From Minisyncoccota bacterium (lineage in GTDB: Bacteria; Patescibacteriota; Minisyncoccia; Phycocordibacterales; GCA-2747955), in contig JAHDDI010000001.1 of the NCBI GenBank assembly GCA_020629435.1, positions 1 to 39,210 on the forward strand: DNA of 39,210 nucleotides, given 5' to 3'. The notes beneath the pieces are model-generated. The model saw only the letters and a list, made by a program, of their open reading frames with translations. It did no database searches and was not told the origin of the DNA. This document shows, in pieces, positions 1 through 37,683 of the stretch. A program made the translations under genes and the position numbers. Numbering within the stretch: the stretch's first letter is position 1; each line of letters begins with the position of its first letter.

Positions 1-3000
1 TGTCTCTGACGGTAGGTTGCACCCAACCAGATTATTCATAAATCTGTTTGTAGTTTTGTATTTGTAGCCTGTGCCTGCTGTCAGCCCCCATGGTTGCAGC
101 ATAGTTTGTCTAAAGGTTTCTTGGAAATTCTTTATCGCAGACCGAATGCCCGAATCGTATCGAGTATTAATCGAACCACTATAGAACCCAAGCTCTGTCA
201 TAAGTATTTTTGTAATACGTACCTCGGCCGAATCAGTGTTCTCTGTAGTACTGTTAAATTCTGTAAAGACAGGACAGGTCAGTTGTCTGTTACACATAAA
301 TGAATTTACCTTGAGTCGAGTTGTAAGAAACACATACCCTGTTGGTTGTTCTAGTCCCCATGGTTCTAGAACTGAGGCACGGTATTTTTCTTGGAATCGT
401 TTGACTGCTGCAAAGTCGTCTTGGTCATATGTGCCGTCTTCTGACAAATTTTCTCCTTGTTTGTCATTGAGAAACGCAATTAATTTATTAACCTCGACTG
501 GGTTGTTTGAACGACCTATAGCAATAGTTTCCTTCAAATATGGTGCGCAGACCGAATCAAGCGTATTGGTATTTGAACTACCACTAGTTTGATTTTCTAT
601 TTCTTTGAGTAGGTCTTTGATTAGGTCAGTTGTTTCTTCTGTTGCAGAGTCGTCGTATTTACACAGTCTATTATCTGTTTTTCCTTTTCTGTTAGAGTAA
701 TTAGTTGCAGAACTGTCGCGACAATAGTAACGGGTACCGCCACCACCTGATGTTGTAGGTGTACTGATTACTACTAGAGACTTGTTAGCCAGACCATTTA
801 TGGTTGTTTGATTCCCCACACTATCTGACTGTGTTACGGTCAATGAAATTACGTCATCTCCTTCGGGAATATCTGTTACATCAAACACCGCTGACCAACT
901 GCCACCAACACAAGTACTGGTTGCAACAGATGACGACGCACTAGGTAGACTAATCGAGACTACTCCGTCACCGTTTGTGCACAACCCAGAGACCGTGTAA
1001 TTTGTTTGATCTGAAGATACAGTAACGTCGTCTAAATTTGTAATGGTTAAATTGGGTGGAGTTATGTCAATGTTTAATGGGTTTGCACTCACTGCATACG
1101 CGTAATTCCCCGCCAAGTCGTGTGCACGATAACATACATAATCTCCGTTATTGTCTTCGTTATTAAATGTAATTACCTGGCCCATGGTAGAGGTAAAATC
1201 GTAGCTATCACTAGCATTACATACCCCGTCCGAACTAAACCCGTATTGTAATGGTGACGATGTTGCCAAATAGTCGTCTGTTGCCATAGCTGAAATAGTT
1301 TCGCTCAATGATGGGCCTGCTGAAATATCAGTCATTATTGTGATAACAGGAAGGGTTGTATCAACAATATACGATGACTGATTTTTACCAACTGCGGCAT
1401 TAGAACTATCAGTTGCATCGACCTGTAAAATTCCCGTATTACTGATACCTTGGACCGTACAGGTCACTATATCGTTATATGGGTCAGTGGTGTCACCTCC
1501 GGCTCCTATACAGTCCAGTGTTGTCCCTACTGACGCAGGTCCTGACAACACAATATTAGTCACTGGTTGATCTGTAGGAGTATCAACGGTAAAGACTACG
1601 TCATTGATAGTTGATGATGCAATAGTAGTTCCAGTGGTAAAGGTAATGATTGGGGGAAATGCTAACTCTATTTGCGAACTGTTTCCCGCCACGTCATACA
1701 CAACCACTGTTACATTATGGACCATCTCATCAGGATCAAGATCTAAAGTAATTATATTTGAAACCGATGTAGTCGAAGTGGTTGCTGTATTTACACCCCC
1801 TGCATTATTGTCTGCTATATATATAAATTCGTAATAACTAATCCCACTTTGTGTATCTGAGGCTGTCACGGTAATCTCTGGATCATCAACCCCACCGACT
1901 GTGTCAATTTGTGCGGAACTGATTGGATCTTGTGTATCAACAAAAACAGATAGCTGAGACGAGGTGGCAAATTGCATGCCTTCTAATACTAATTCTGTAC
2001 TGATCAATGTGGTGCCGCTCACTAGTGCAGTAGGTGGTGTAATGGAATACACTCCTCCCACACAAGTATCATTGTCAACTGAGACAACCCCATTGATAAT
2101 CAAATTAACTGTAGACCCGCTGACACATGTGCCCGTAAATGTTGGATTTGTGATGTTGGTTACATTATCAATATCTAATACTCCTGAATCAGATGTCGTT
2201 GCCAAATCAGGCACTGGAATTTGTTCGTTTGGGTCCCTGAACGAAACAACAGTATCTGCGTCTATATCTAATAGCTCTGTCTGAGGATTCACATATGCAT
2301 CATTTGCATCATACAGTCCCGCGGGAGATGTATCGACACCATCATAATCGTCTAATAGGCCGTCACCATCTGAGTCAGTTCCTGAAGCATCAGAAGTCCT
2401 GTATGTTTCGAATCTGTCTGAAAGACCATCTCCATCTGAATCGGTGGAAACATAATCAGGCAAGTATCCATTTGTAGTTATTGGGTCTGTGATTCCCAAA
2501 ACCCCATATGCACTATCAAGGCCACCATTAGTTGCAGCATCACCAAGTGGTGCAACATAACCACCTGTTGTTTGTGCCTCTATGTTGTCGGGGATACCAT
2601 CATTATCCGAATCAATGTCTTCGCTATCGATAACTCCGTCATTGTCAGTGTCTAGGGGCTCTACTATAACCTCTAGGTTGTCGATAAACGCAAAAGTACC
2701 GTGCGAAGATACTGCTGACCCTCCTATGAATACAATAATTGAAGAGCTACTAGTTATACCATGATCACTTGGCAAAAATTGAAAATATCTTTTCCCCCAT
2801 GTCCCTGCAGTCTCTCCAGAGGTATTAAAGTTTTCCATGGTATCCAATAGTATCCCTGATACTGATGTTGTGGCATTAAGACGGACCTCTACAAATACGT
2901 CTTCCAATATTTGGCCATCATCCATATCGTATTCAGTATAATCCATACGTACCGTAACAGGTTCATTTGCATCTACGACAAACAAAGAATTATAGAATCC

Positions 3001-3459
3001 TTCACTTCTTCGAATAGACATGAATGAACCCCCTGTTGGCGAGGAATCAAAACCAACCAAAGATGTTCTGGTCTGAGCGTCACTATGAAACTGAACAGTG
3101 CTGTCAGTACTTAGGTCTGGGGAATTATATTTTACCCACGGCGCTGGAACCTTGTTTGCATTTTTTTTAGGATTGGCTGTTGGCTCAAAAGGGGTCCCGT
3201 CTGGTTGGTTAAAATCGCCATTGTCTAAAATAGCGTTTGCTTGTGCATACTGATTTTCAATCTCGTCAAGAATTCCATCATTGTCATCATCCGGATCCAC
3301 CGCATCAAGAATTCCATCGTTATCGACGTCTCCCACTACCGCATGTGCGTAATTAACTACAAACCATGCATTATGTGTAGCAACTAAAGACAAAACAACT
3401 GCAAATACAGTATAAGTTAGCAATGAACTACTTTTTTTAAATGTTTGGTAAATATACAT
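1..3459 (-). CDS. Giant secreted/surface protein, C-terminus cut by the window edge (>=1153 aa). It has an N-terminal signal/anchor, thrombospondin-type-3-like Asp-rich Ca-binding repeats, a beta-sandwich-like region, Ig-like repeats and two peptidoglycan-binding-like C-terminal repeats.
   Basis: ATG at 3459..3457. I checked every + strand triplet in frame 1 from 1 to 3471 and found no TTA/CTA/TCA, so there is no minus-strand stop. The upstream in-frame stop is at 3472..3474. N-terminus MYIYQTFKKSSSLLTYTVFAVVLSLVATHNAW. Repeats: GDVDNDGILDAVDPDDDNDGILDE, DTDNDGVIDSEDIDSDNDGIPDN, STDSDGDGLSD, GTDSDGDGLLDD. PG-binding-like segments: NPVEVNKLIAFLNDKQGENLSEDGTYDQDDFAAVKRFQEKY and YDSGIRSAIKNFQETFRQTMLQPWG. 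It is absent from the ORF track because it has no stop inside the window. Confidence 0.8.
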   Translation of the reverse strand, partial: MYIYQTFKKSSSLLTYTVFAVVLSLVATHNAWFVVNYAHAVVGDVDNDGILDAVDPDDDNDGILDEIENQYAQANAILDNGDFNQPDGTPFEPTANPKKNANKVPAPWVKYNSPDLSTDSTVQFHSDAQTRTSLVGFDSSPTGGSFMSIRRSEGFYNSLFVVDANEPVTVRMDYTEYDMDDGQILEDVFVEVRLNATTSVSGILLDTMENFNTSGETAGTWGKRYFQFLPSDHGITSSSSIIVFIGGSAVSSHGTFAFIDNLEVIVEPLDTDNDGVIDSEDIDSDNDGIPDNIEAQTTGGYVAPLGDAATNGGLDSAYGVLGITDPITTNGYLPDYVSTDSDGDGLSDRFETYRTSDASGTDSDGDGLLDDYDGVDTSPAGLYDANDAYVNPQTELLDIDADTVVSFRDPNEQIPVPDLATTSDSGVLDIDNVTNITNPTFTGTCVSGSTVNLIINGVVSVDNDTCVGGVYSITPPTALVSGTTLISTELVLEGMQFATSSQLSVFVDTQDPISSAQIDTVGGVDDPEITVTASDTQSGISYYEFIYIADNNAGGVNTATTSTTSVSNIITLDLDPDEMVHNVTVVVYDVAGNSSQIELAFPPIITFTTGTTIASSTINDVVFTVDTPTDQPVTNIVLSGPASVGTTLDCIGAGGDTTDPYNDIVTCTVQGISNTGILQVDATDSSNAAVGKNQSSYIVDTTLPVITIMTDISAGPSLSETISAMATDDYLATSSPLQYGFSSDGVCNASDSYDFTSTMGQVITFNNEDNNGDYVCYRAHDLAGNYAYAVSANPLNIDITPPNLTITNLDDVTVSSDQTNYTVSGLCTNGDGVVSISLPSASSSVATSTCVGGSWSAVFDVTDIPEGDDVISLTVTQSDSVGNQTTINGLANKSLVVISTPTTSGGGGTRYYCRDSSATNYSNRKGKTDNRLCKYDDSATEETTDLIKDLLKEIENQTSGSSNTNTLDSVCAPYLKETIAIGRSNNPVEVNKLIAFLNDKQGENLSEDGTYDQDDFAAVKRFQEKYRASVLEPWGLEQPTGYVFLTTRLKVNSFMCNRQLTCPVFTEFNSTTENTDSAEVRITKILMTELGFYSGSINTRYDSGIRSAIKNFQETFRQTMLQPWGLTAGTGYKYKTTNRFMNNLVGCNLPSET

Positions 3460-3538
3460 AAAATTTATAATTTACTACTGATGGTTACTATACTCTCTAT
3501 TATTACATGCCACCATATTTTTTTGTACTAGATACACA

Positions 3539-10356: not shown

Positions 10357-10442
10357 ATGTGTTTATTTATTTATAATACAAGTAAAAGAGAACCTGTTGT
10401 GGTTCTCTATTTTACTTGAATTGTGGTTTTTCTCAAATGGGC

Positions 10443-10772
10443 CTATTCAATTTCAAAGTCAATATCTTCTAAGTCATCGAATTCTAACAATTGTGCGTCT
10501 AGGTCATCTAGTAGTGTCAGGTCTAGTTCCAGACTGGCATCCAAGTCTGACTCGATGCTCTCTAAATCTGTCGATGATGATAATTCTACTTCGTCTTCCT
10601 GTTGTGTGTTTGCTTCAAAATATCCATCCGGTACTACTACTGTTGAACCAGCGTCATATTTTAAATCAGCCAACATATTTTTGTAAAAATATAACCCTGC
10701 TATTGCAACAACCCCAAGGATGATTACAACCGCCAGTGCGGGCCCAAACTGCGTTTTTTTTGTGTTATCCAT
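10443..10772 (-). CDS. Small membrane-anchored protein with a strongly acidic tail (109 aa)
   Basis: ORF track. TM segment FGPALAVVIILGVVAIAGLYF. The tail is rich in D, E and L. It starts 7 nt after the upstream gene. Confidence 0.6.
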   Translation of the reverse strand: MDNTKKTQFGPALAVVIILGVVAIAGLYFYKNMLADLKYDAGSTVVVPDGYFEANTQQEDEVELSSSTDLESIESDLDASLELDLTLLDDLDAQLLEFDDLEDIDFEIE

Positions 10773-10779
10773 AAATATA

Positions 10780-11550
10780 TTAATTAGTTACTTCCACGTC
10801 AGTCTCCGAATCAACAGTGGCCTCGGATCGTAATGATTTTAATTCACTGTGCGCTTGTCGTAATGCTGCGTACATGTCTTTAATTGATTGCATTGTTTCT
10901 TTAAAGAATACTTTTGCCTCGCTTAGCGCTGCACGTGCTTGTTCTGTAGTCTCTGCTGATACCGCAATAGCAATTTGTGCTTGTGCGTCAGCTAGGGACG
11001 ATTCCGCGCTCACTTGAGCATCAGCTGCAATAGCAATTTGTGCTGATACTGCACTAGTGTCCAAACCTTGTTGTGCAAAATTTTCGGTTGCGTCTTCTAG
11101 ACGAGACGTAATTTGTTCACCCCTCTCTATTCCTGCCTGCAGTCGTCGAACGATTAGTTCTGCTCGTTCAGCGATAAAATTTTGGGCCTGAGCTTTTCTT
11201 TTTTCTACCATTTCCTTTCGCTCTGCTTGTATTTGTTCTTTTTCTTCTGCTGCTTTGTCTCGTACCGCCTGTTTTTCTTCATCTGTTGTTGCGGCCTGAA
11301 ATTCTGCACGTAATTCTGTTTTTCGTGCATCAGTAGCTGCTTTAAACTCGGTTTTTGCTTCAGCGTTATTGATTCGGAACTGTTCTCTGGTTTCTTGAAT
11401 TTGTTCTTTGGTTTCTTGAGCCTGTGTTCGCACAGCATTACGTGCTTCTTTATCAAAAAGACGTGCGTTACCTTGCACTGAAACTCCTGTTGTTTGTGCA
11501 GATGCAGCAACAGCTGAGAATCCAATTAGTACTAGTAGTGTTTTTTTCAT
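10780..11550 (-). CDS. Secreted coiled-coil hypothetical protein (256 aa)
   Basis: Signal peptide MKKTLLVLIGFSAVAASA, followed by long A/E/K/Q-rich helical sequence. Confidence 0.7.
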   Translation of the reverse strand: MKKTLLVLIGFSAVAASAQTTGVSVQGNARLFDKEARNAVRTQAQETKEQIQETREQFRINNAEAKTEFKAATDARKTELRAEFQAATTDEEKQAVRDKAAEEKEQIQAERKEMVEKRKAQAQNFIAERAELIVRRLQAGIERGEQITSRLEDATENFAQQGLDTSAVSAQIAIAADAQVSAESSLADAQAQIAIAVSAETTEQARAALSEAKVFFKETMQSIKDMYAALRQAHSELKSLRSEATVDSETDVEVTN

Positions 11551-11661
11551 AATATGTTTTTACAATAAATAATAACGGGTGCATCCCATTACTATTTATA
11601 ATACTTGTGACAAAATTAAAAGCAAAATTGACGAATATTCTGACTGTCCACATAATATCGA

Positions 11662-11689
11662 TTGGTTAGTGAGAATATATTGGTATATT
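11662..11689 (+). promoter_or_regulatory. Candidate sigma-70 promoter for HNH-like copy 1
   Basis: TTGGTT-N16-TATATT, with TGG immediately upstream of the -10 (extended -10-like). Confidence 0.35.
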
Positions 11690-11742
11690 AAAGATAAGAG
11701 TTAATTGCAACACTAACAGTACCGACAGAAAGGTAGGTAGTT

Positions 11743-12129
11743 TTCGATAATATTGACCCGCAACTCATCAACCGTCATCATCCCCTACCAAAAAGTAAGG
11801 GTGGGTCTCGGACAATCCCAGTACCAGCATGGCGACACGCATGTCATCACACCATTGCCTCAAATTATCTCTGTGACTTAGCAATTCCTTGTTACAGTTT
11901 TGCACTAATGCATGGTCTCGGCTGGGGTGGACATATCCAAATCAAACGACCTGGTCAATTTTGTTTTCAAAGCCTGCCATTTGATGAAGGTATGCTCAGA
12001 AGCAGGCAGATCACGGTCAAGTTGGCAATCCAAGCGATGTTTGGGCCCAGTCCCCACCCAAGAAAAGTGTGTGCAGAACTAGAGAAAATCTGGTTGCCAC
12101 CTGAAGGAAAGCTTCGTTATATTACATGA
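11743..12129 (+). CDS. Small HNH-like protein, paralog 1; possible pseudogene or non-canonical start (the aligned start codon is TTC)
   Basis: The frame is open from 11737 to TGA 12127..12129. Hand translation: FDNIDPQLINRHHPLPKSKGGSRTIPVPAWRHACHHTIASNYL...KLAIQAMFGPSPHPRKVCAELEKIWLPPEG. The track ORF (11908..) misses the HH..P.S.GG core. The copy shares a 5' leader and SD-like AAAGGTAGG with copy 2. Confidence 0.5.
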   Translation, partial: FDNIDPQLINRHHPLPKSKGGSRTIPVPAWRHACHHTIASNYLCDLAIPCYSFALMHGLGWGGHIQIKRPGQFCFQSLPFDEGMLRSRQITVKLAIQAMFGPSPHPRKVCAELEKIWLPPEGKLRYIT

Positions 12130-12135
12130 CAAAAC

Positions 12136-12192
12136 CAGGCCGCGTAATCGATGCGCGGCCTGCAGAAAATCGAACCGTTTTACGGTTTTTTT
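12136..12192 (+). terminator. Two consecutive hairpins after HNH-like copy 1; the second has a T-run
   Basis: First hairpin: CAGGCCGCG-N9-CGCGGCCTG (12136..12162). Second: AACCG-TTTTA-CGGTT followed by TTTTT (12173..12192). Confidence 0.65.
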
Positions 12193-12203
12193 AATTCATT
12201 AAT

Positions 12204-12232
12204 TTGACAATATACACAATGTTATTAACAAT
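12204..12232 (+). promoter_or_regulatory. Candidate sigma-70 promoter for HNH-like copy 2
   Basis: Consensus TTGACA (12204..12209), a 17-nt spacer, then AACAAT. Confidence 0.4.
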
Positions 12233-12298
12233 AGTTAATACTGCCCCATAACAGGGATGTTATATTTAATTAAACGATAACAAGAAAGGTAGGCTATT

Positions 12299-12796
12299 TT
12301 GACAAAACAACGTTTAAGTTCTCGCGCCAACAAACACCTTCCACGGTCGAGTCCCCACAGGGCTAAACACCCTTCAAGGCAATCCCAGTTGCGACGTTTT
12401 GGGGTCACTGACAAGACGCATATGAATGTCCACCACAAGCGACCACTTTCTGGTGGAGGCGGCTGGTCAGACAACAACATATCGATTGTCTACAAGCGTG
12501 CTCACAAGTTCTGGAATGCCTTGTGTGCGGACAACCAAAACATCAGAAACGTCTCCCGCGTTATTATCTCGCTGATACGTTCGATGACGGGCAAGTGGTC
12601 TTGGCTACTTAAAGTCTGTTCAAGAATTGGTGGTAAAACCGGATGGATTGAGTCCGGCGAATCGTGTGTGCCAAATGACAGACAGGTTCGTGCCTTCACA
12701 AAACTGTTTGCGGGACTGGGCCCATTTGCCGTTGTTCGAGTCGTTAACGACATATGGATAGACTCCCGTTACAGCATTAGCTTGATCAAAGCCTAA
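12299..12796 (+). CDS. Small HNH-like nuclease-fold protein, paralog 2 (165 aa) with a basic N-terminal extension
   Basis: TTG start 5 nt after AAAGGTAGG. Core: NVHHKRPLSGGGGWSDNNISIVYKRAHKFWNAL (H-N-H/N pattern). The C-terminal RQVRAFTKLFAGLGPFAVVRVVNDIWIDSRY aligns with copy 1. Confidence 0.7.
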   Translation: MTKQRLSSRANKHLPRSSPHRAKHPSRQSQLRRFGVTDKTHMNVHHKRPLSGGGGWSDNNISIVYKRAHKFWNALCADNQNIRNVSRVIISLIRSMTGKWSWLLKVCSRIGGKTGWIESGESCVPNDRQVRAFTKLFAGLGPFAVVRVVNDIWIDSRYSISLIKA

Positions 12797-12802
12797 AAAT
12801 GC

Positions 12803-12831
12803 AAAGGTCCCACGTGCGCGTGGGACCTTTT
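12803..12831. terminator. Bidirectional intrinsic terminator shared by HNH-like copy 2 and glyQS
   Basis: AAAGGTCCCACG-TGCG-CGTGGGACCTTTT. Confidence 0.8.
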
Positions 12832-12834
12832 GAA

Positions 12835-14235
12835 TTATGTATATGACTGTTTAATTTGTTCTGTAAAATAATTATCTAATTCTGAAATTGGCATTCGTAC
12901 CTGCTCCATGGAATCTCGTTCTCGGACAGTTACTGTTGCGTCTTCTTTGCTTTCATAATCAACAGTGACGCACCATTTTGTTCCTACTTCGTCTGCGCGT
13001 CTGTATCGTTTTCCCACTGACCCAGATTCGTCATAGGTGCATCGAAATTGCGAATTCAATTCACGATATATATCTAATGCCATTTCCGACAGTCCGTCTT
13101 TTTTCATCAACGGCAGTATTGCTATTTGTACCGGAGAGAGAAAGGGTTTTAATCGCAACACTACACGAACGTCGCTTTTTTCTTCGGTTCCGACTTCTTC
13201 TTCGTCGTACGCTTCGGATAATACCGCCAGGAATAACCGACCCATCCCCATTGATGTCTCGATAATATAGGGAATAAATTTTTCTCCATTGTCATTAAAT
13301 GATAAATCTACCCCACTATGTTTAGTATGTTGAGACAAATCATAGTCCGTTCGGTCATGGACCCCCTCTACTTCGTCATATCCGTATGATGGATAATTGT
13401 ATTCAATATCCCATGCATCTGATGCATAAAACACCAGATTGTCATGTTGTGACCATTGCAGGTTGTCTTTGTTGACTCCTAAATCCAGATACCAATCAAA
13501 TCGTTCCTGGCGGATTTTATCAAAATGGTCCTTGTTGGTTCCAGGTTTAACAAAGTATTGTGTATCTGCCTGTTCAAATTCCCTGGTTCGAAACAAAAAT
13601 TGTCGTGGTGAAATTTCGTTACGAAATGCCTTTCCGATTTGTGCGATTCCGAATGGAATTTTTGGATGCAGAGAATCGACTACGTTTTTGTAGTTCAGAT
13701 ATATCCCCTGGCACGCTTCTCCTGGTAGGTACACCGGGTCAGAACCTTCTGCAGTGAAATCACCTAAATTAGATTTCACTAACAAATTAAACGACCGTGC
13801 TTCAGAAAAATCAGTTGACCCACATTTGTAACATTTTATTTCGTCTCGTTTAGAGTCAAACAAAGTGTTAATTTCTTTGTCAGTCATTTTCTCGTCTGCT
13901 TCGATTCCAACTTTTTCTAATTCTTTGTCTACACGAATCCTGTTTTGACAGACACGGCAGTCGGCCAGGGGGTCAGAAAATCCACTGGTGTGTCCTGACG
14001 CATCCCACACCGCAGGATTTTTAAACATAGCCGAATCTATTTCAAAAAAATCTCTTTTTTCTTGTACTGTTTTTTTTCTGAAATAGTCTTTTAAATTATT
14101 GAGTAGTACTGCTCCATGAGGTCCAAAGTCATATACACCTGCCAACCCATCGTATATTTCTGAACCTTGGTACACAAAACCTTTGCGTTTTGTGTACGCA
14201 ATAATCGTATCCATTGATTTTTCTGAATGATTCAT
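12835..14235 (-). CDS. glyQS: Glycine--tRNA ligase, homodimeric class II type (466 aa)
   Basis: N-terminus IIAYTKRKGFVYQGSEIYDGLAGVYDFGPHG. It has class II motifs, and the length matches GlyQS. Confidence 0.92.
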   Translation of the reverse strand: MNHSEKSMDTIIAYTKRKGFVYQGSEIYDGLAGVYDFGPHGAVLLNNLKDYFRKKTVQEKRDFFEIDSAMFKNPAVWDASGHTSGFSDPLADCRVCQNRIRVDKELEKVGIEADEKMTDKEINTLFDSKRDEIKCYKCGSTDFSEARSFNLLVKSNLGDFTAEGSDPVYLPGEACQGIYLNYKNVVDSLHPKIPFGIAQIGKAFRNEISPRQFLFRTREFEQADTQYFVKPGTNKDHFDKIRQERFDWYLDLGVNKDNLQWSQHDNLVFYASDAWDIEYNYPSYGYDEVEGVHDRTDYDLSQHTKHSGVDLSFNDNGEKFIPYIIETSMGMGRLFLAVLSEAYDEEEVGTEEKSDVRVVLRLKPFLSPVQIAILPLMKKDGLSEMALDIYRELNSQFRCTYDESGSVGKRYRRADEVGTKWCVTVDYESKEDATVTVRERDSMEQVRMPISELDNYFTEQIKQSYT

Positions 14236-14241
14236 GACAGT

Positions 14242-14247
14242 ATTATA
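14242..14247 (-). promoter_or_regulatory. -10 hexamer TATAAT 6 nt upstream of the glyQS ATG
   Basis: Minus-strand read: TATAAT-actgtc-ATG (14235), with no SD. Confidence 0.5.
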
Positions 14248-14273
14248 TCAGAATTGTTATCTGCTGCGATTGG

Positions 14274-16244
14274 TTATTCCTGTACTCGCGCATTAGCGGA
14301 GACAAAATTTGGGTCTTCCCCTAGGCGAGTGGTATGTTCTGAGTCATCCGTAGTGATAGTGATCCCGGTAAACGCATCTGTTGCTTGCAGTGACACATCT
14401 TCGATTAACACCGGTGACTGGTTTACTTGATTCAAAGATGGTTCAAAGCCAATAGTAAAGAAGGCTTCTTTGGTAGGACTAGAGAACCCAACTCCTGGTT
14501 CGATATCACCTGCATTCCACGTTACTGTTCTGGTGCGACTGTCGTACTGGATATTTTCTTCACTAGGAGCAATTTGATTCGCAAAAGAAACATAGGGAGG
14601 TAACTTGGCAGAAAGGGTGGTGTTTTGTATTCCACTTGTTGTGTTTTTTATTTGCCACCGCACCGTATATGTTGTGACTTCTCCGACAGTCGGCGTTGTG
14701 GGACCCACGTTCTGCAGTGGACCTACAGAATACAGCACTGACTGATCCACAAAAGCGTCAGTAGCAAGTGTAATTCTGGTTCGCTTTTGTACTTGAATTT
14801 TCTTTTCTTCACCTCCTTGTTCAAAATTTGTTGCGCGGGCAACCAAATCAATCACTAATTCTGGATTAGTCACCATGCCTGCAAATTCTTCAAAATCTAG
14901 TAGTTGTGTATCAAATTGCAACACTCCTTTTTCTCCCGACTCTATGCCTGCCAGTTGTCCGATCTCTGATGAACTCCAGTTTACGGTATTGTTGTTTGAC
15001 CTATAGTATCCACGTGTACTGGAAACGTCACGCGTGTCATACACCAGACCAACAAGATTTGCAGTAAATTCTACATCAATTAGTTTACTCAGTAATGTGT
15101 TTACATAATTTATATCAAAATTTAAATCCTGACCGGTTCGTGCAACATGTACTGAGCCTGGGTTGTTGTTTACCATAACTGCAATATCAATTGGTGGTTT
15201 AGCAAGTGCCAATACGGATTGGGTTGATACAAATTCTACGCCAATTGTTCCTGGCCGATTTGCATCTTCTGACCCTAAACGATAGCGAAATGTTCGTTGT
15301 TCATTGTCTTGCCCAACAATAGTTCCCGACAATATTATTGATTGTTTTTCTCCTGGATCCAGTGCATCCAACAGGTAGGTTTCTGAATCTATTCCTGGCG
15401 CCGATGAGCTGGCAAAATCAAATCCAAACGGATAATCAATGGACAGCAATAAGTTCGATATGGTTTCTGCGGCATTAGATTGTACGTCAACAACAATCGT
15501 CATCTCGTCTCCTGTTTGGTAATTTCCTTCGTGCTGTGCACTGATTGTTACAGGAGCTGATTCAACCACAATCTGATACAGTCTTTCTTTAAAAAAAATT
15601 CTATCAGAGTCTGGGACTCGATACTGAAACACAATATTAATATCCTTGGTTTCTCCTTCTTTCCCTAACAAAATTGCAGAAAATTTAACCGTGTCTGATA
15701 GACCAGAACGAATCTCGTCTATACTTTTTATATCTTTATCCAGGGGTAAATTTTGACCATCTGCTGTGATAGTTCCTTTGGGGTAATTAATAACTACGTC
15801 AGTCAGGATCATAGATACTGGATTGTTGTTTGCCACAGTGATATCAAAATCTACCTCTTCGCCTCCGGCAACGGAATTTGGACCGAGCACTGACAAATCA
15901 ACCGCATCGTATGACACCTCGTTTTGTCCATAAAAAAATACTAAAAACGCACCCATAACAGAAAAAGCAAAAAATAATCCAGACAGTATAAATAGTTTTG
16001 CAAACAAAGTTATTGGTTTCTTTTTAACTTGTTTTTTCTCGACTAAATCAATTTCTTTTTCTGTTTCTTTTACTGGATCCCAGGACTGAGCCACGTTAGT
16101 GGCGTTTTTACTAAAACCCTTTCTTTTGTAAGGTTTTACTGTGGTATTTTTTGCATACAATTTCTGTTGTATGTCATGTACCCCACCCAGCTGAGGTGGT
16201 TGTTTTTTTTCTTTATCAGTTCCGTATGTGCTTTTGTAAACCAT
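14274..16244 (-). CDS. Large membrane-anchored hypothetical protein with repeated beta-sandwich-like modules (656 aa)
   Basis: ORF track. It has a basic N-terminus, a TM segment (LFAKLFILSGLFFAFSVMGAFLVFF), and a long extracytoplasmic region. Confidence 0.8.
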   Translation of the reverse strand: MVYKSTYGTDKEKKQPPQLGGVHDIQQKLYAKNTTVKPYKRKGFSKNATNVAQSWDPVKETEKEIDLVEKKQVKKKPITLFAKLFILSGLFFAFSVMGAFLVFFYGQNEVSYDAVDLSVLGPNSVAGGEEVDFDITVANNNPVSMILTDVVINYPKGTITADGQNLPLDKDIKSIDEIRSGLSDTVKFSAILLGKEGETKDINIVFQYRVPDSDRIFFKERLYQIVVESAPVTISAQHEGNYQTGDEMTIVVDVQSNAAETISNLLLSIDYPFGFDFASSSAPGIDSETYLLDALDPGEKQSIILSGTIVGQDNEQRTFRYRLGSEDANRPGTIGVEFVSTQSVLALAKPPIDIAVMVNNNPGSVHVARTGQDLNFDINYVNTLLSKLIDVEFTANLVGLVYDTRDVSSTRGYYRSNNNTVNWSSSEIGQLAGIESGEKGVLQFDTQLLDFEEFAGMVTNPELVIDLVARATNFEQGGEEKKIQVQKRTRITLATDAFVDQSVLYSVGPLQNVGPTTPTVGEVTTYTVRWQIKNTTSGIQNTTLSAKLPPYVSFANQIAPSEENIQYDSRTRTVTWNAGDIEPGVGFSSPTKEAFFTIGFEPSLNQVNQSPVLIEDVSLQATDAFTGITITTDDSEHTTRLGEDPNFVSANARVQE

Positions 16245-36339: not shown

Positions 36340-37683
36340 TTAGAACATGCTACGAATAGCGTCTAAATCAGTAGTAAGTTGAGGATTATCATCTAATTCA
36401 CCACGAACCTTATCACAAGAGTGCATTACTGTTGTGTGGTCACGTCCACCTAATTTTTCACCAATTGTTGGAAATGATATTTTGAAATCTTCTCGTAGAA
36501 TATACATAATTAACTGTCTTGGTTTTACAAACTCTTTCTTCCTAATCTTTTTGTATACATTCTCTTCATCGATACCATAGTAGTCAGACACAATCTGAAC
36601 CACTTCTTCTACCTTCATTACCTTTTTCTTTTTAACATTGTTCTTCACCAAATCTTTTACTTCATTGAGAGTTAGTTCTCTTCCTCGAACATCTGATTTT
36701 AAGATCACTGAGTTCAGTACACCCTCTAATTCACGAATGTTTCCATTAATTGTTGTAGCCAAATATTCAATTACTTTTTCTGTTAGGGCAAATTGTGATG
36801 AATTTGATTTTTGTCGCAAAATTTCAATCCGTGATTCATAATCAGGTGCTTGAATATCAATAGTCATCCCTGCGTTAAATCGCCCACGTAGTCGGTCTTC
36901 AATATCAGAAATCTGGTTGGGGTGTTTATCAGAAGAAAAGATAATTTGTTTGTTGTTGTCATACATATAGTTAAACAAGTGAAACAATTCCTCTTGGGTT
37001 TTTTCTTTTTTTGCTAAAAATTGAATATCATCAATGATTAAAACATCATATTTTCGATATTTCATTTTAAAATCGTTAGCACGGTTTGATTTACCAATTT
37101 GCTCTACAACCTCCATTTGGAATTTATCAGTCGTTAGGTAGTACACTTTTTTGTGTGGTTGGTTTTTTTTGATGTGGTTACCAATAGATTGAATAAGGTG
37201 TGTTTTTCCAAATCCAGTGTTCCCATAGACAAAGAATGGGTTATAGACCACTTCTTGTTTTTTAATGATTGCCTGCGCTGCTGAATAGGCCACTTCATTA
37301 AAGTCTCCCACAACAAAAGTATCAAAAGTATATTTAGGGTTCAAATTATCATCCTTGTTGATATATAGTGACTCAATAGGAAGACGGTTGTTCATTGATG
37401 GAGACGATCGTTTAACAGGTTCTTTTCTGTCTTCTTTCTTTTCAATAATATATTCTAGTGACCGCAATGTGTCATCAGAATCAATTAAGTGTTTTAAAAT
37501 AGTTTTGTGAAACTTCTCAGAGAGCCAGTTTTTTACAAATTGGTTGGGGGTTGCCAATACAACAGTTCCATCATCAATTTTTGAAATATACGTATCCTTG
37601 AACCACGTATTAAAGTTTGCCTTTGAAATATCGAGTTCAATATTTGAAGATGCTTTTTCCCACACAGTTTGGTAATCACTCAT
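36340..37683 (-). CDS. dnaA: Chromosomal replication initiator protein DnaA (447 aa)
   Basis: AAA+ Walker A GNTGFGKTHL, Walker B LIIDDIQF, and the domain IV signature GGRDHTTVMHSCDKV. Confidence 0.95.
   Translation of the reverse strand: MSDYQTVWEKASSNIELDISKANFNTWFKDTYISKIDDGTVVLATPNQFVKNWLSEKFHKTILKHLIDSDDTLRSLEYIIEKKEDRKEPVKRSSPSMNNRLPIESLYINKDDNLNPKYTFDTFVVGDFNEVAYSAAQAIIKKQEVVYNPFFVYGNTGFGKTHLIQSIGNHIKKNQPHKKVYYLTTDKFQMEVVEQIGKSNRANDFKMKYRKYDVLIIDDIQFLAKKEKTQEELFHLFNYMYDNNKQIIFSSDKHPNQISDIEDRLRGRFNAGMTIDIQAPDYESRIEILRQKSNSSQFALTEKVIEYLATTINGNIRELEGVLNSVILKSDVRGRELTLNEVKDLVKNNVKKKKVMKVEEVVQIVSDYYGIDEENVYKKIRKKEFVKPRQLIMYILREDFKISFPTIGEKLGGRDHTTVMHSCDKVRGELDDNPQLTTDLDAIRSMF

What the first reader, a model, noticed from the sequence alone, without database searches (positions are those of the whole stretch)
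11662..12831. GC-rich 1.2-kb island with two tandem, diverged small HNH-like genes, each with its own promoter-like leader and terminator
The segment between a coiled-coil secreted protein gene and glyQS contrasts with host DNA in composition. Hand counts give 31/60 G+C for 12301..12360, against 20/60 for 10381..10440 and 21/60 for 36361..36420. It carries two paralogous cassettes. Both share the leader TTAATT..AAC..AACA..AGAAAGGTAGG plus 5 nt before the start position. Both have an HH-x-x-P-x-S-x-GG core (RHHPLPKSKGGS and VHHKRPLSGGGG). Both have a C-terminal RQ(I/V)..A...(M/L)F(G/A)...P......(I/V)W(L/I) block. Copy 2 retains a full H-N-H/N pattern (HH...DNNISIV...AHKFWN) and adds a basic 45-aa N-terminal extension. 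Stand-alone small HNH proteins are typical of mobile or selfish DNA and of nuclease-based conflict systems. The composition, the SD-like leader (host genes here mostly lack SD) and the tandem duplication all point to a horizontally acquired module of unknown role.
Basis: partly seen in the sequence, partly recalled or inferred. Interest (0 to 1): 0.65.

Follow-up and report, generated by a model that had tools for sequence, protein, structure and literature searches.

The report
Two divergent mini-HNH nuclease genes
The GC-rich stretch holds two real but very different genes for small HNH-type nucleases of an unannotated family found only in Patescibacteria; one is an old resident of this spot and the other is a recently inserted, self-contained gene cassette.

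Summary
Window 11662-12831 has the highest G+C of any 1.17-kb stretch of the window (0.451 against 0.389). It carries two monocistronic units on the + strand, each with a promoter, a purine-rich leader and a terminator.

Copy 2 (12299-12796, 165 aa) is a divergent full-length member of a family of about 125-aa proteins. The family has at least 130 clusters, all "hypothetical", with no Pfam or NCBIfam model, and all named sources are Patescibacteria. Its model (pLDDT 84) has a beta-beta-alpha-metal core. It keeps H-H...N...H...N at colicin-like spacing.

Copy 1 (open frame 11737-12129) is a still more divergent branch of the same family (hhalign 94.9%, E 4.6e-8). It is not a pseudogene. Orthologues lie in the same slot in two other metagenomes, with substitutions 29/15/69 by codon position. 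It has no canonical start codon.

The pair is not a recent tandem duplication. Both relatives lack copy 2. In its place, one of them (L136) has the core of an AT-rich terminator hairpin. Copy 2 is therefore a 629-bp promoter-to-terminator insertion, and its codon usage is foreign (GC3 z = +5.4).

The biochemical role is inferred to be a metal-dependent nuclease. This is a new variant of a known kind, of moderate interest.

The parts
11628..11656 (+). Sigma-70-like promoter of copy 1: TTGACG, 17 nt, CATAAT
   Evidence: Found by the consensus scan. Both hexamers are identical in the orthologous locus L136, although the surrounding DNA is about 71% identical.
11681..11689 (+). Host-type extended -10 element (GGTATATT) in the copy 1 upstream region; alternative promoter
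   Evidence: A G.TATATT block is conserved in all four aligned leaders: copy 1 of the window, L136, L137 and copy 2. It resembles the G.TATA.T boxes upstream of host genes.
11723..11738 (+). Conserved leader block CGACAGAAAGGTAGGT. It contains the SD-like AGAAAGG and the in-frame TAG at 11734-11736.
   Evidence: The 16 nt are identical in L136, although synonymous sites between the two genes are saturated. The 11-mer is repeated before copy 2.
11737..12129 (+). Copy 1: open frame of 130 codons plus TGA, a divergent 'copy-1-type' mini-HNH gene. The start codon is unresolved. The ATT at 11752 is the best candidate.
   Evidence: Translation. Orthologues are P0122/L136 (75% aa identity, same 130 codons, no indels) and P0128/L137 (48%). 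Differences by codon position are 29/15/69, with pN 0.152 and pS 0.765. hhalign against the family gives 94.9%, E 4.6e-8, 103 columns.
11767..11856 (+). HNH-like core of copy 1 (INRHHPLPKSKGGSRTIPVPAWRHACHHTI). It keeps H14, H15, H34 and H38. The Asn loop is 4 residues shorter and has no Asn.
   Evidence: Alignments. All of these residues are invariant in the three orthologues.
12135..12192 (+). Two terminator hairpins of copy 1: 12135-12162, then 12172-12188 followed by a T run
   Evidence: Scan. Both hairpins are kept in L136, with a G-C to G-U change in the first and a different stem and loop in the second.
12199..12827 (+). Copy 2 cassette, 629 bp from promoter to terminator. It is absent from L136 and L137.
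   Evidence: L136 375-1037 aligns with window 11536-12198, and L136 1062-1196 aligns with window 12828-12962. In L136 about 24 nt stand in its place, the core of a long AT-rich hairpin. L137 has 68 nt between the copy-1-type stop and the glyQS stop.
12191..12198 (.). Left outer arm (TTAATTCA) of the ancestral terminator hairpin, now the left flank of the cassette
   Evidence: Comparison with the L136 hairpin TTAATTCAAAAACCACATA-ATTT-GTATGTGGTTTTTGAATTAA.
12204..12266 (+). Promoter region of copy 2: TTGACA (12204-12209), 17 nt, AACAAT (12227-12232), and a host-type -10, GTTATATT (12259-12266)
12283..12293 (+). SD-like leader block AGAAAGGTAGG of copy 2, 5 nt before the TTG
   Evidence: AGAAAGG is a 7-nt match to the complement of the canonical 16S 3' tail. 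That complementarity rests on established knowledge. The host's own 16S was not seen.
12299..12796 (+). Copy 2 ORF, 165 aa, pI 11.4. It has a basic N-terminal tail (about residues 1-40), an HNH core, and the family-specific C-terminal module.
   Evidence: ORF. An HMM built without the window sequences gives E 2e-19 and 68.9 bits over residues 38-163. AF2 with 97 sequences gives pLDDT 84.1 and pTM 0.74. GC3 is 0.536 (z +5.4) and synonymous codon log-odds z is -5.35. The tail has 11 K/R and 1 D/E in 40 residues.
12422..12526 (+). Beta-beta-alpha-metal core of copy 2 (residues 42-76), with H45, H46, N60, H69 and N73
   Evidence: Strands 42-46 and 61-65 and helix 66-76. The family profile aligns to the colicin E7 HNH motif. 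Local Foldseek matches to HNH proteins.
12803..12830 (.). GC-rich perfect hairpin (12-bp stem). It terminates copy 2 and, on the other strand, glyQS.
   Evidence: I13. It stands where L136 has an AT-rich hairpin of unrelated sequence.
12831..12837 (.). Right outer arm (TGAATTA) of the ancestral hairpin, now the right flank of the cassette

Best explanation
The island holds two independent, monocistronic protein-coding genes. They are very divergent members of one undescribed family of mini-HNH nucleases restricted to Patescibacteria. A typical member is about 125 aa. It has an N-terminal beta-beta-alpha-metal motif, HHRRPRSLGG..NISYV....H..WH, followed by a family-specific alpha/beta module that ends in AW..LF and IN..WLDPSYH.

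Copy 1 is a resident gene of this small Paceibacteria clade. It has been inherited vertically in the slot downstream of glyQS (between glyQS and the coiled-coil gene in the window and L136) and kept under purifying selection. It retains the four histidines but has lost the structural Asn and most C-terminal signature residues.

Copy 2 is a later gain. A 629-bp cassette running from promoter to terminator replaced the core of the bidirectional terminator hairpin between copy 1 and glyQS. It came from a donor with higher G+C, and its own GC-rich hairpin now also terminates glyQS.

Inferred mechanism for copy 2: it is a one-metal-ion nuclease. H46 acts as general base, H45, H69 and N73 hold the metal, and N60 braces the loop. 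The basic disordered tail and the C-terminal module hold the nucleic-acid substrate.

The cellular role is not shown. I consider a host-serving role in DNA metabolism or restriction of foreign DNA somewhat more likely than a purely selfish homing role. My reasons are that family members are single-copy, compositionally host-like and strongly conserved.
For: Coding and family membership:
- Exhaustive phmmer with copy 2 finds 9 weak hits, 8 of them small proteins.
- Their profile finds 130 clusters, all unnamed and without Pfam, and every source name given is a Patescibacteria lineage.
- An HMM built without the window sequences scores copy 2 at E 2e-19 over its full length.
- The copy-1-type profile against the family profile gives 94.9%, E 4.6e-8, 103 columns.
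- A copy-1-type HMM retrieves only family ORFs among about 20,000 six-frame ORFs.

HNH:
- The family profile hits the colicin E7/E9 HNH motif with E 1.3e-3.
- Sub-threshold PF01844 matches occur in 19 of 97 members.
- The AF2 model has pLDDT 84 and a beta-beta-alpha core.
- Local Foldseek matches to HNH proteins have rmsd 1.2-2.6 A over 33-47 columns.
- hhalign to a T4-like phage HNH homing endonuclease gives E 7.8e-6.

Copy 1 is functional and resident:
- Orthologues lie in L136 and L137 beside glyQS.
- Differences by codon position are 29/15/69, with pN 0.152 against pS 0.765. The other two frames show pN above pS.

Copy 2 was gained:
- It is absent from L136 and from the more distant L137.
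- An intact perfect hairpin stands at the empty site.
- GC3 z is +5.4 and codon usage z is -5.35 against 33 host ORFs.

Assembly is sound, with a single copy in the sample.
Against: - There are no expression data; no RNA run holds the stretch.
- Every link to known HNH proteins is weak by E-value (1e-3 to 1e-2) and covers only about 35-70 residues. No member reaches a Pfam gathering score.
- The AF2 model rests on an alignment in which copy 2 is an outlier.
- Copy 1 has no canonical start codon, and neither does its L137 orthologue, so how it is translated is unknown.
- The empty site rests on two short contigs. L136 is 1.2 kb and has an N run inside the coiled-coil gene.
- The leader of copy 2 resembles that of its neighbour copy 1 more than a foreign origin predicts.
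- No nuclease activity, substrate or biological role was tested.
Confidence: 0.72

Rival explanations
1. Copy 2, and perhaps the whole family, is a free-standing homing-endonuclease-like selfish gene. The nuclease cuts the empty intergenic site, the terminator hairpin between copy 1 and glyQS, in genomes that lack it. Repair from a cassette-bearing donor then copies the cassette in.
For: - There is a precise promoter-to-terminator presence/absence polymorphism in an intergenic hairpin between convergent genes.
- Copy 2 has foreign codon usage.
- The family occurs in 41 different contexts with no conserved neighbour.
- Small GIY-YIG genes lie next to members in L088 and L094.
- The closest annotated phage relatives are free-standing HNH homing endonucleases.
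- The same slot holds a different gene, a PIN-PhoH protein, in L011.
Against: - Typical members are compositionally host-like and highly conserved, keeping a median of 42 of 44 near-invariant residues.
- There is one copy per locus, none among the 80 GlyQS loci covering 1.25 Mb, and none confirmed on viral contigs.
- Copy 1 has stayed in one slot across organisms whose GlyQS is only 69-76% identical.
- No known sequence-specific DNA-binding module was detected.
- No second copy and no empty-site variant was found in the sample.
Confidence: 0.2
2. The pair is an old in-situ tandem duplication. The common ancestor had both copies, and L136 and L137 each lost copy 2.
For: - The two units share promoter and leader architecture and the exact 11-mer AGAAAGGTAGG at the same distance from the start position.
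- Both products belong to one family.
Against: - It needs two independent, clean deletions.
- One of those deletions would have to leave a perfect 19-bp AT-rich hairpin.
- Copy 2 has the most deviant GC3 and codon usage of 35 ORFs. An old resident should have converged on host composition, as copy 1 partly has.
- The proteins are under 20% identical.
Confidence: 0.08
3. Copy 1 is a catalytically dead or untranslated remnant. Only copy 2 is a working gene.
For: - Copy 1 has no ATG, GTG or TTG before codon 58.
- The Asn of the HNH motif and the RR, W and DP.Y signature residues are lost. It keeps 18 of 44 near-invariant positions.
- A direct family HMM gives only 10.6 bits.
Against: - The 130-codon frame has no indels in the L136 orthologue (L137 differs by a few short gaps), and third-position substitutions dominate: 29/15/69 by codon position, pN/pS about 0.2.
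- 55 residues are invariant across three orthologues, including all four His.
- Promoter, leader and terminators are conserved.
- Loss of catalysis cannot be excluded. Loss of coding function can.
Confidence: 0.1
4. The two genes form a nuclease toxin and immunity (or antitoxin) pair. The degenerate copy 1 neutralises copy 2.
For: - The genes are adjacent.
- One partner looks catalytically impaired.
- The HNH motif is closest to that of colicin DNases.
Against: - Copy 1 exists alone in L136 and L137.
- Family members never have a conserved neighbour.
- The two genes are separately transcribed, with terminators between them.
- There are no PADLOC matches.
Confidence: 0.04
5. The island encodes structured non-coding RNAs, not proteins.
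For: - It is a GC-rich intergenic-looking stretch in an AT-rich genome with its own promoters and terminators.
- The leader block is conserved.
Against: - There is no Rfam match, even at E up to 10.
- Folding z-scores are -2.3 and -0.5 and are mostly explained by the terminators.
- The substitution pattern follows codon positions.
- There are protein homologues and a confident fold.
Confidence: 0.01

Closest known systems
HNH motif of colicin E7/E9 DNase domains (PDB 3zfk, 1m08, 1bxi and others)
   Same: They are the best sequence match among solved structures (E 1.3e-3). The aligned string is HH.(K/R)P.S..GG....NIS.V....H...H. By my reading of that alignment, the spacing is the same to within one residue: general-base His to Asn is +14/15, Asn to His is +9, and His to His/Asn is +4.
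   Different: Only about 35 residues align. The colicin domain is the C-terminal part of a large secreted toxin with a dedicated immunity gene. Here the protein is 125-165 aa and cytoplasmic-looking, has no conserved neighbour, and carries an unrelated C-terminal module.
Free-standing HNH homing endonucleases of T4-like phages (for example QBA85069.1, 204 aa, Klebsiella phage vB_KpnM_GF, between endonuclease II and RNA ligase)
   Same: They are the closest annotated relatives in the phage collection: tblastn E 3e-4 to 3e-3, hhalign 83.9%, E 7.8e-6, 72 columns, 33% identity. Like copy 2, they are self-contained genes inserted between conserved genes.
   Different: Similarity fades after the HNH core. 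The phage proteins are longer. No family member was confirmed on a viral contig, and copy 2 itself has no phage hit. Homing was not tested.
Minimal stand-alone HNH nucleases such as the Gme HNH nicking endonuclease (PDB 4h9d) and small phage HNHc proteins (BFVD)
   Same: The local structural superposition of the beta-beta-alpha core is good. Against 4h9d the rmsd is 1.2 A over 33 columns. Against BFVD HNHc proteins it is 1.6-1.9 A over 44-47 columns, with about 30% identity and probability 1.0.
   Different: Those proteins are essentially the core alone (70-100 aa). Here about 90 further residues form a conserved alpha/beta module with no structural match in the PDB or BFVD.

Membership tests
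HNH / beta-beta-alpha-metal nuclease superfamily | Two antiparallel strands followed by a helix that together form the metal site | tested here: met
   Copy 2 model (pLDDT 84): strands 42-46 and 61-65, helix 66-76. Local Foldseek matches are almost all to HNH proteins. Copy 1 was not modelled.
HNH / beta-beta-alpha-metal nuclease superfamily | General-base His, structural Asn, and metal-ligand His/Asn residues at the canonical spacing | tested here: met
   Copy 2 has H45, H46, N60, H69 and N73. The family consensus has H at the last position.
HNH / beta-beta-alpha-metal nuclease superfamily | The same catalytic residues in copy 1 | tested here: inconclusive
   H14, H15, H34 and H38 are present and invariant in three orthologues. 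The loop is 4 residues shorter and has no Asn.
Pfam HNH (PF01844) and HNH_5 (PF14279) as curated families | Score at or above the gathering threshold | tested here: not met
   Neither window protein has any hit, even at E up to 10. Among family members there are only weak matches, best E 1.1e-3, in 19 of 97 (PF01844) and 6 of 97 (PF14279).
Patescibacterial mini-HNH family (defined here, alignments A3 and A8) | Full-length match to a family HMM built without the window sequences | tested here: met
   Copy 2 scores E 2e-19 and 68.9 bits, covering profile positions 5-125 of 139. Copy 1 reaches only 10.6 bits directly, but its three-orthologue profile matches the family profile at 94.9%, E 4.6e-8.
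Patescibacterial mini-HNH family (defined here, alignments A3 and A8) | C-terminal signature AW..LF ... IN..WLDP.Y | tested here: inconclusive
   Copy 2 has AFTKLF ... VNDIWIDSRY, so most of it is kept. Copy 1 has AIQAMF ... LEKIWLPPEG, which is degenerate. They keep 25 and 18 of 44 near-invariant columns, against a family median of 42.
Free-standing homing endonuclease | Presence/absence polymorphism of the gene at one intergenic site between related genomes | tested here: met
   The copy 2 cassette is absent from L136 and L137 at the same site.
Free-standing homing endonuclease | The enzyme cleaves the cognate empty site and the gene spreads by repair | not testable with these tools
   This needs an in vitro cleavage assay on the L136-type sequence.
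Free-standing homing endonuclease | Patchy, phylogeny-incongruent distribution, often on phages or other mobile DNA | tested here: inconclusive
   Contexts are variable. Against that, there is one copy per locus, composition is host-like, no viral contig carried a member, and copy 1 is stable at one locus.
Nuclease toxin with immunity or antitoxin partner (colicin E-type, toxin-antitoxin) | A conserved adjacent partner gene | tested here: not met
   No neighbour family recurs beyond local synteny in 41 distinct loci. Copy 1 occurs without copy 2. There are no significant PADLOC hits (none for either window protein).
Recent in-situ tandem duplicate | The copies are more alike than orthologues are, or both are present in sister genomes | tested here: not met
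   Copy 1 and copy 2 are 14-19% identical. Copy 1 orthologues are 75% and 48% identical. Copy 2 is missing from both relatives.

The most novel reading that the evidence does not exclude
The mini-HNH genes of Paceibacteria are autonomous promoter-to-terminator nuclease cassettes that invade intergenic terminator hairpins of cellular genomes. That would be a cellular counterpart of the free-standing homing endonucleases of phages. Some copies, such as copy 1, then become domesticated and are translated from a non-canonical start (AUU, or the TTC that replaces the cassette's TTG), in a host that otherwise uses leaderless, SD-free mRNAs.
Probability: 0.15. Interest if true: 0.65.

Novelty: new variant of a known kind. 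Interest (0 to 1): 0.42.

Why it matters
It defines a protein family that annotation pipelines now leave blank. The family has at least 130 clusters, with no Pfam, NCBIfam or informative PHROG model. It joins a recognisable HNH active site to a C-terminal module that has no structural relative.

Patescibacteria have tiny genomes with few recognisable DNA repair and defence genes. A conserved small nuclease is therefore a reasonable candidate for a missing function.

The locus also offers a clean natural experiment. An empty site, an old resident copy and a fresh cassette insertion can all be compared at base-pair resolution. This makes the question of homing nuclease versus cellular nuclease directly testable in vitro.

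The lack of a canonical start codon in a gene under purifying selection, in a host that looks leaderless, is a separate small puzzle about translation initiation in these bacteria.

Tried and rejected
- Non-coding RNA: Rfam found only two tRNAs elsewhere in the window at gathering score, and nothing credible in the island at E up to 10. RNA folding z-scores are unremarkable. Rejected.
- Direct family scans of the two proteins: Pfam and NCBIfam gave nothing, and PHROGs gave two weak hits to families of unknown function. PADLOC gave nothing for either window protein.
- Word-indexed search with copy 2 found nothing.
- Scans of genome, viral and metagenome contigs with copy 2 alone found nothing.
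- An exact look-up of GlyQS found nothing.
- tblastn of both copies against 80 GlyQS loci gave only noise.
- Single-sequence AF2 of copy 2 was useless (pLDDT 44).
- Whole-chain Foldseek against the PDB gave no significant match, only local HNH hits.
- Assembly chimera was rejected: contigs are continuous and depth is even.
- A second copy or an empty-site variant in the same sample was not found at 80% likeness or more.
- No RNA-seq run holds the stretch.
- The leader 11-mer as a family hallmark was rejected. Its other occurrences in the loci fit chance, and one lies at the 3' end of an unrelated member's ORF.
- A programmed frameshift from the conserved +1-frame TTG at 11753 was considered. 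It was dropped because no conserved slippery site exists and the alternative frames show pN above pS.
- Weak uS10 matches in the PDB profile search are not backed by Foldseek and are treated as chance.
- The apparent ORF-free 3 kb at the left end of the window is a long minus-strand ORF that runs off the window.
Full report
**What is in the sequence**

Window 11662-12831 lies between a minus-strand gene for a secreted coiled-coil protein (10780-11550) and minus-strand glyQS (12835-14235). The island is 0.451 G+C against 0.389 for the window. No non-overlapping 1170-nt window reaches that value. The excess is only about 2 sd, and tetranucleotide usage is unremarkable.

Logan contigs from three runs of one 'algae metagenome' sample span 10500-14500 without a break at even depth. 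The island is therefore not an assembly artefact.

**The two units**

Copy 2 is a clean ORF at 12299-12796, with a TTG start, 165 aa.

Copy 1 is an open frame of 130 codons (11737-12129) that begins right after an in-frame TAG. It has no ATG, GTG or TTG before codon 58. At the position that matches copy 2's TTG it has TTC.

Both units have sigma-70-like promoters. A pair of hairpins follows copy 1. A perfect 12-bp GC-rich hairpin follows copy 2 and also serves glyQS on the other strand. The 11-mer AGAAAGGTAGG occurs only twice in the window, 5 nt before each start position.

**Not RNA genes**

Rfam finds nothing in the island, even at E up to 10. Folding energies are near those of shuffles.

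**A protein family emerges**

Pfam and NCBIfam give nothing for either product, and PHROGs gives only two weak hits to families of unknown function. The word-indexed search with copy 2 also finds nothing. An exhaustive phmmer search of 1.84 billion representatives with copy 2 finds nine weak hits, with E from 3e-6 to 1e-3. Eight of them are small proteins. They share two motifs:

- HHRxPxSxGG..NISxV....H.AW..LF near the N terminus
- AW..LF.......INxIWLDPxY at the C terminus

A profile of these finds 130 clusters. All are unnamed or 'hypothetical' and have no Pfam domain. Wherever a source names the organism it is a Patescibacteria lineage (Paceibacterota, Nomurabacteria). Typical length is 122-138 aa.

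An HMM built without the window sequences scores copy 2 at E 2e-19 over its whole length. Copy 2 keeps 25 of 44 near-invariant positions, against a median of 42 for members. It is a real but outlying member. It also carries a basic tail of about 33-35 extra residues, and its pI is 11.4.

**HNH**

Several lines point the same way, though each is weak:

- The family profile's best matches among solved structures are colicin E7/E9 DNases (E 1.3e-3). They align exactly over the HNH motif.
- By my reading of that alignment, copy 2 has H45, H46, N60, H69 and N73 at the colicin spacing. The family consensus has His at the last position.
- PF01844 gives sub-threshold matches in 19 of 97 members, none at gathering level.
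- AlphaFold2 with the 97-sequence alignment gives pLDDT 84.1 and pTM 0.74, with strand 42-46, strand 61-65 and helix 66-76.
- Foldseek finds no global match in the PDB. It does find local matches to HNH domains: Cas8f-HNH at 2.6 A over 44 columns, and Gme HNH at 1.2 A over 33 columns.
- In BFVD the top hits are mostly phage HNHc/HNH proteins, at 1.6-1.9 A over 44-47 columns, about 30% identity, probability 1.0.
- A typical member also hits the free-standing HNH homing endonuclease of T4-like Klebsiella phages. hhalign with the family profile gives E 7.8e-6 over 72 columns.

The roughly 90 residues after the core have no structural relative.

**Copy 1 is a real, old gene**

Copy 1 scores only 10.6 bits against the family HMM, in two colinear pieces. 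By chance, the protein set fetched earlier contained P0122, which turned out to be its orthologue. A last profile search added P0128.

Locus L136 is a 1.2-kb ENA scaffold. It carries, in order, the coiled-coil gene, the copy 1 orthologue and the 3' end of glyQS. Locus L137 carries an unidentified partial ORF on the minus strand (not matched to the coiled-coil protein), a copy-1-type gene, glyQS (69% identical to the window's GlyQS) and the next conserved gene.

Window and L136 each have exactly 130 codons from TAG to stop, with no indels and 75% amino-acid identity. Differences by codon position are 29/15/69. pN is 0.152 and pS is 0.765, which is saturated. The other two frames show pN above pS. 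That is purifying selection on this frame.

Further support that copy 1 belongs to the family:

- 55 residues, including all four His, are invariant in the three orthologues.
- The three-orthologue profile matches the family profile at 94.9%, E 4.6e-8, over 103 columns that span both motifs.
- An HMM of it retrieves only family ORFs from about 20,000 six-frame ORFs.

Copy 1 is thus a strongly diverged branch of the same family. It lacks the structural Asn, because the loop is 4 residues shorter, and it lacks most C-terminal signature residues.

**Copy 2 is an insertion**

L136 aligns with window 11536-12198 and then resumes at 12828-12962. Window 12199-12827 has no counterpart. That stretch runs from 5 nt before the TTGACA of copy 2's promoter into its GC-rich hairpin.

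In its place L136 has about 24 nt. They are the core of a long perfect AT-rich hairpin, TTAATTCAAAAACCACATA-ATTT-GTATGTGGTTTTTGAATTAA. Its outer arms, TTAATTCA and TGAATTA, flank the cassette in the window. L137 also lacks copy 2: only 68 nt with one hairpin separate the copy-1-type stop from the glyQS stop.

One gain in the window's lineage is more parsimonious than two clean losses. Composition agrees. Against 33 host ORFs (GC3 0.310 +/- 0.042):

| ORF | GC3 | GC3 z | Synonymous codon-usage z |
|---|---|---|---|
| Copy 2 | 0.536 | +5.4 | -5.35 (most deviant ORF in the window) |
| Copy 1 | 0.382 | +1.7 | -2.4 |

No second copy and no empty-site variant is seen in the sample. In a more distant relative with the same gene order (L011), the slot holds a 469-aa ORF that I read from its sequence as a PIN-PhoH-type protein (not run against Pfam).

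**The wider family**

In 41 distinct loci there is always one family gene, usually followed by its own terminator. No neighbour recurs beyond local synteny. Neighbours include dprA and topA, Pif1, small GIY-YIG genes (twice) and SWIB. Typical members have host-like GC3. None was confirmed on viral contigs. None lies in the 1.25 Mb around glyQS of 80 other Patescibacteria. I found no paper describing the family.

**Translation signals**

Only 1 of 33 host ORFs has an SD core. Many have a G.TATA.T -10 box 6-8 nt before the ATG, which suggests leaderless mRNAs. Published work reports that the anti-SD motif is missing from about half of Parcubacteria 16S sequences (PMC9297842).

Both island genes instead have a leader with AGAAAGG. 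The four leaders (copy 1 in three genomes, plus copy 2) share a -10-like G.TATATT, the purine block and TTT(C/G). All three copy-1-type genes have TTC where copy 2 has TTG. An ATT six codons after the TAG (window 11752; fourteen codons after the TAG in L137) is conserved in all three and is my best guess for the start. This is unresolved.

Copy 2's leader is closer to the neighbouring copy 1 leader than the L137 orthologue's leader is, despite under 20% protein identity. This hints at gene conversion or a shared regulator. That is inference only.

**Mechanism and role**

Shown:

- Both are protein-coding.
- Both belong to one family.
- Copy 2 has the HNH fold and residues.
- Copy 1 is resident and under purifying selection.
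- Copy 2 is a cassette gain.

Inferred:

- Copy 2 is an active one-metal nuclease. Its basic tail and C-terminal module bind the substrate.
- The biological role is open. I put about 0.2 on a homing-type selfish cassette. I give somewhat more to a host-serving nuclease in DNA metabolism or defence, because members are single-copy, compositionally host-like and conserved. I give little to a toxin-immunity pair.

**Verdict**

This is a new variant of a known kind: the HNH superfamily, as an undescribed Patescibacteria-specific family with a new C-terminal module. Interest is moderate.

Noticed in passing
window, all 33 long ORFs (for example upstream of 14235, 16244, 16304, 30490, 30553): Host genes almost never have a Shine-Dalgarno core (1 of 33). 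Many have a G.TATA.T -10 box ending 6-8 nt before the ATG, as expected for leaderless mRNAs. A paper reports loss of the anti-SD motif in about half of Parcubacteria (PMC9297842).
   Followed up: partly
window 12042-12054 and 12712-12724: A perfect 13-nt inverted repeat (TGGGCCCAGTCCC / GGGACTGGGCCCA) lies at roughly homologous codons of copy 1 and copy 2. It is not conserved in the L136 orthologue. It may be chance (expected about 0.02 in this region) or a recombination or pairing site.
   Followed up: partly
L011 9776-11185: In the one distant relative with the same glyQS / coiled-coil gene / trigger factor order, the slot holds a 469-aa ORF, judged by eye to be a PIN-PhoH-type protein (no family scan run), on the strand convergent with glyQS. 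The slot is therefore variable.
   Followed up: partly
L088 4419-4652 and L094 4697-4945: Small stand-alone GIY-YIG genes (77-82 aa, PF01541) lie directly beside mini-HNH family members in two unrelated loci.
   Followed up: no
L084-L087 5105-8739: In Nomurabacteria genomes a family member (P0097) sits tightly between dprA and topA on the same strand. This is an apparently stable core-gene context found in at least 20 contigs.
   Followed up: no
L133 6091-6414: A minimal 107-aa family member has a C-terminal CxxC tail. It lies in a high-GC contig next to a 245-aa ORF that I did not identify. Its ORF happens to end in AGAAAGGTAG.
   Followed up: no
window 1-3470, minus strand: The apparent 3-kb gap in the ORF list is a single open frame of at least 1157 aa that runs off the left end of the window, with what looks by eye like a hydrophobic N-terminal stretch. 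It includes three of the ten most tetranucleotide-deviant 1170-nt windows, among them the most deviant.
   Followed up: partly
P0003 (hit): A 3084-aa protein made of near-identical repeats of about 130 aa scored E 2e-5 against copy 2, with no aligned stretch reported. This is probably a repeat or composition artefact.
   Followed up: no
family profile A2, positions 30-130: There are weak matches (E 0.02-1) to ribosomal protein uS10 chains in the PDB sequence search. Foldseek does not reproduce them, so they are treated as chance.
   Followed up: partly
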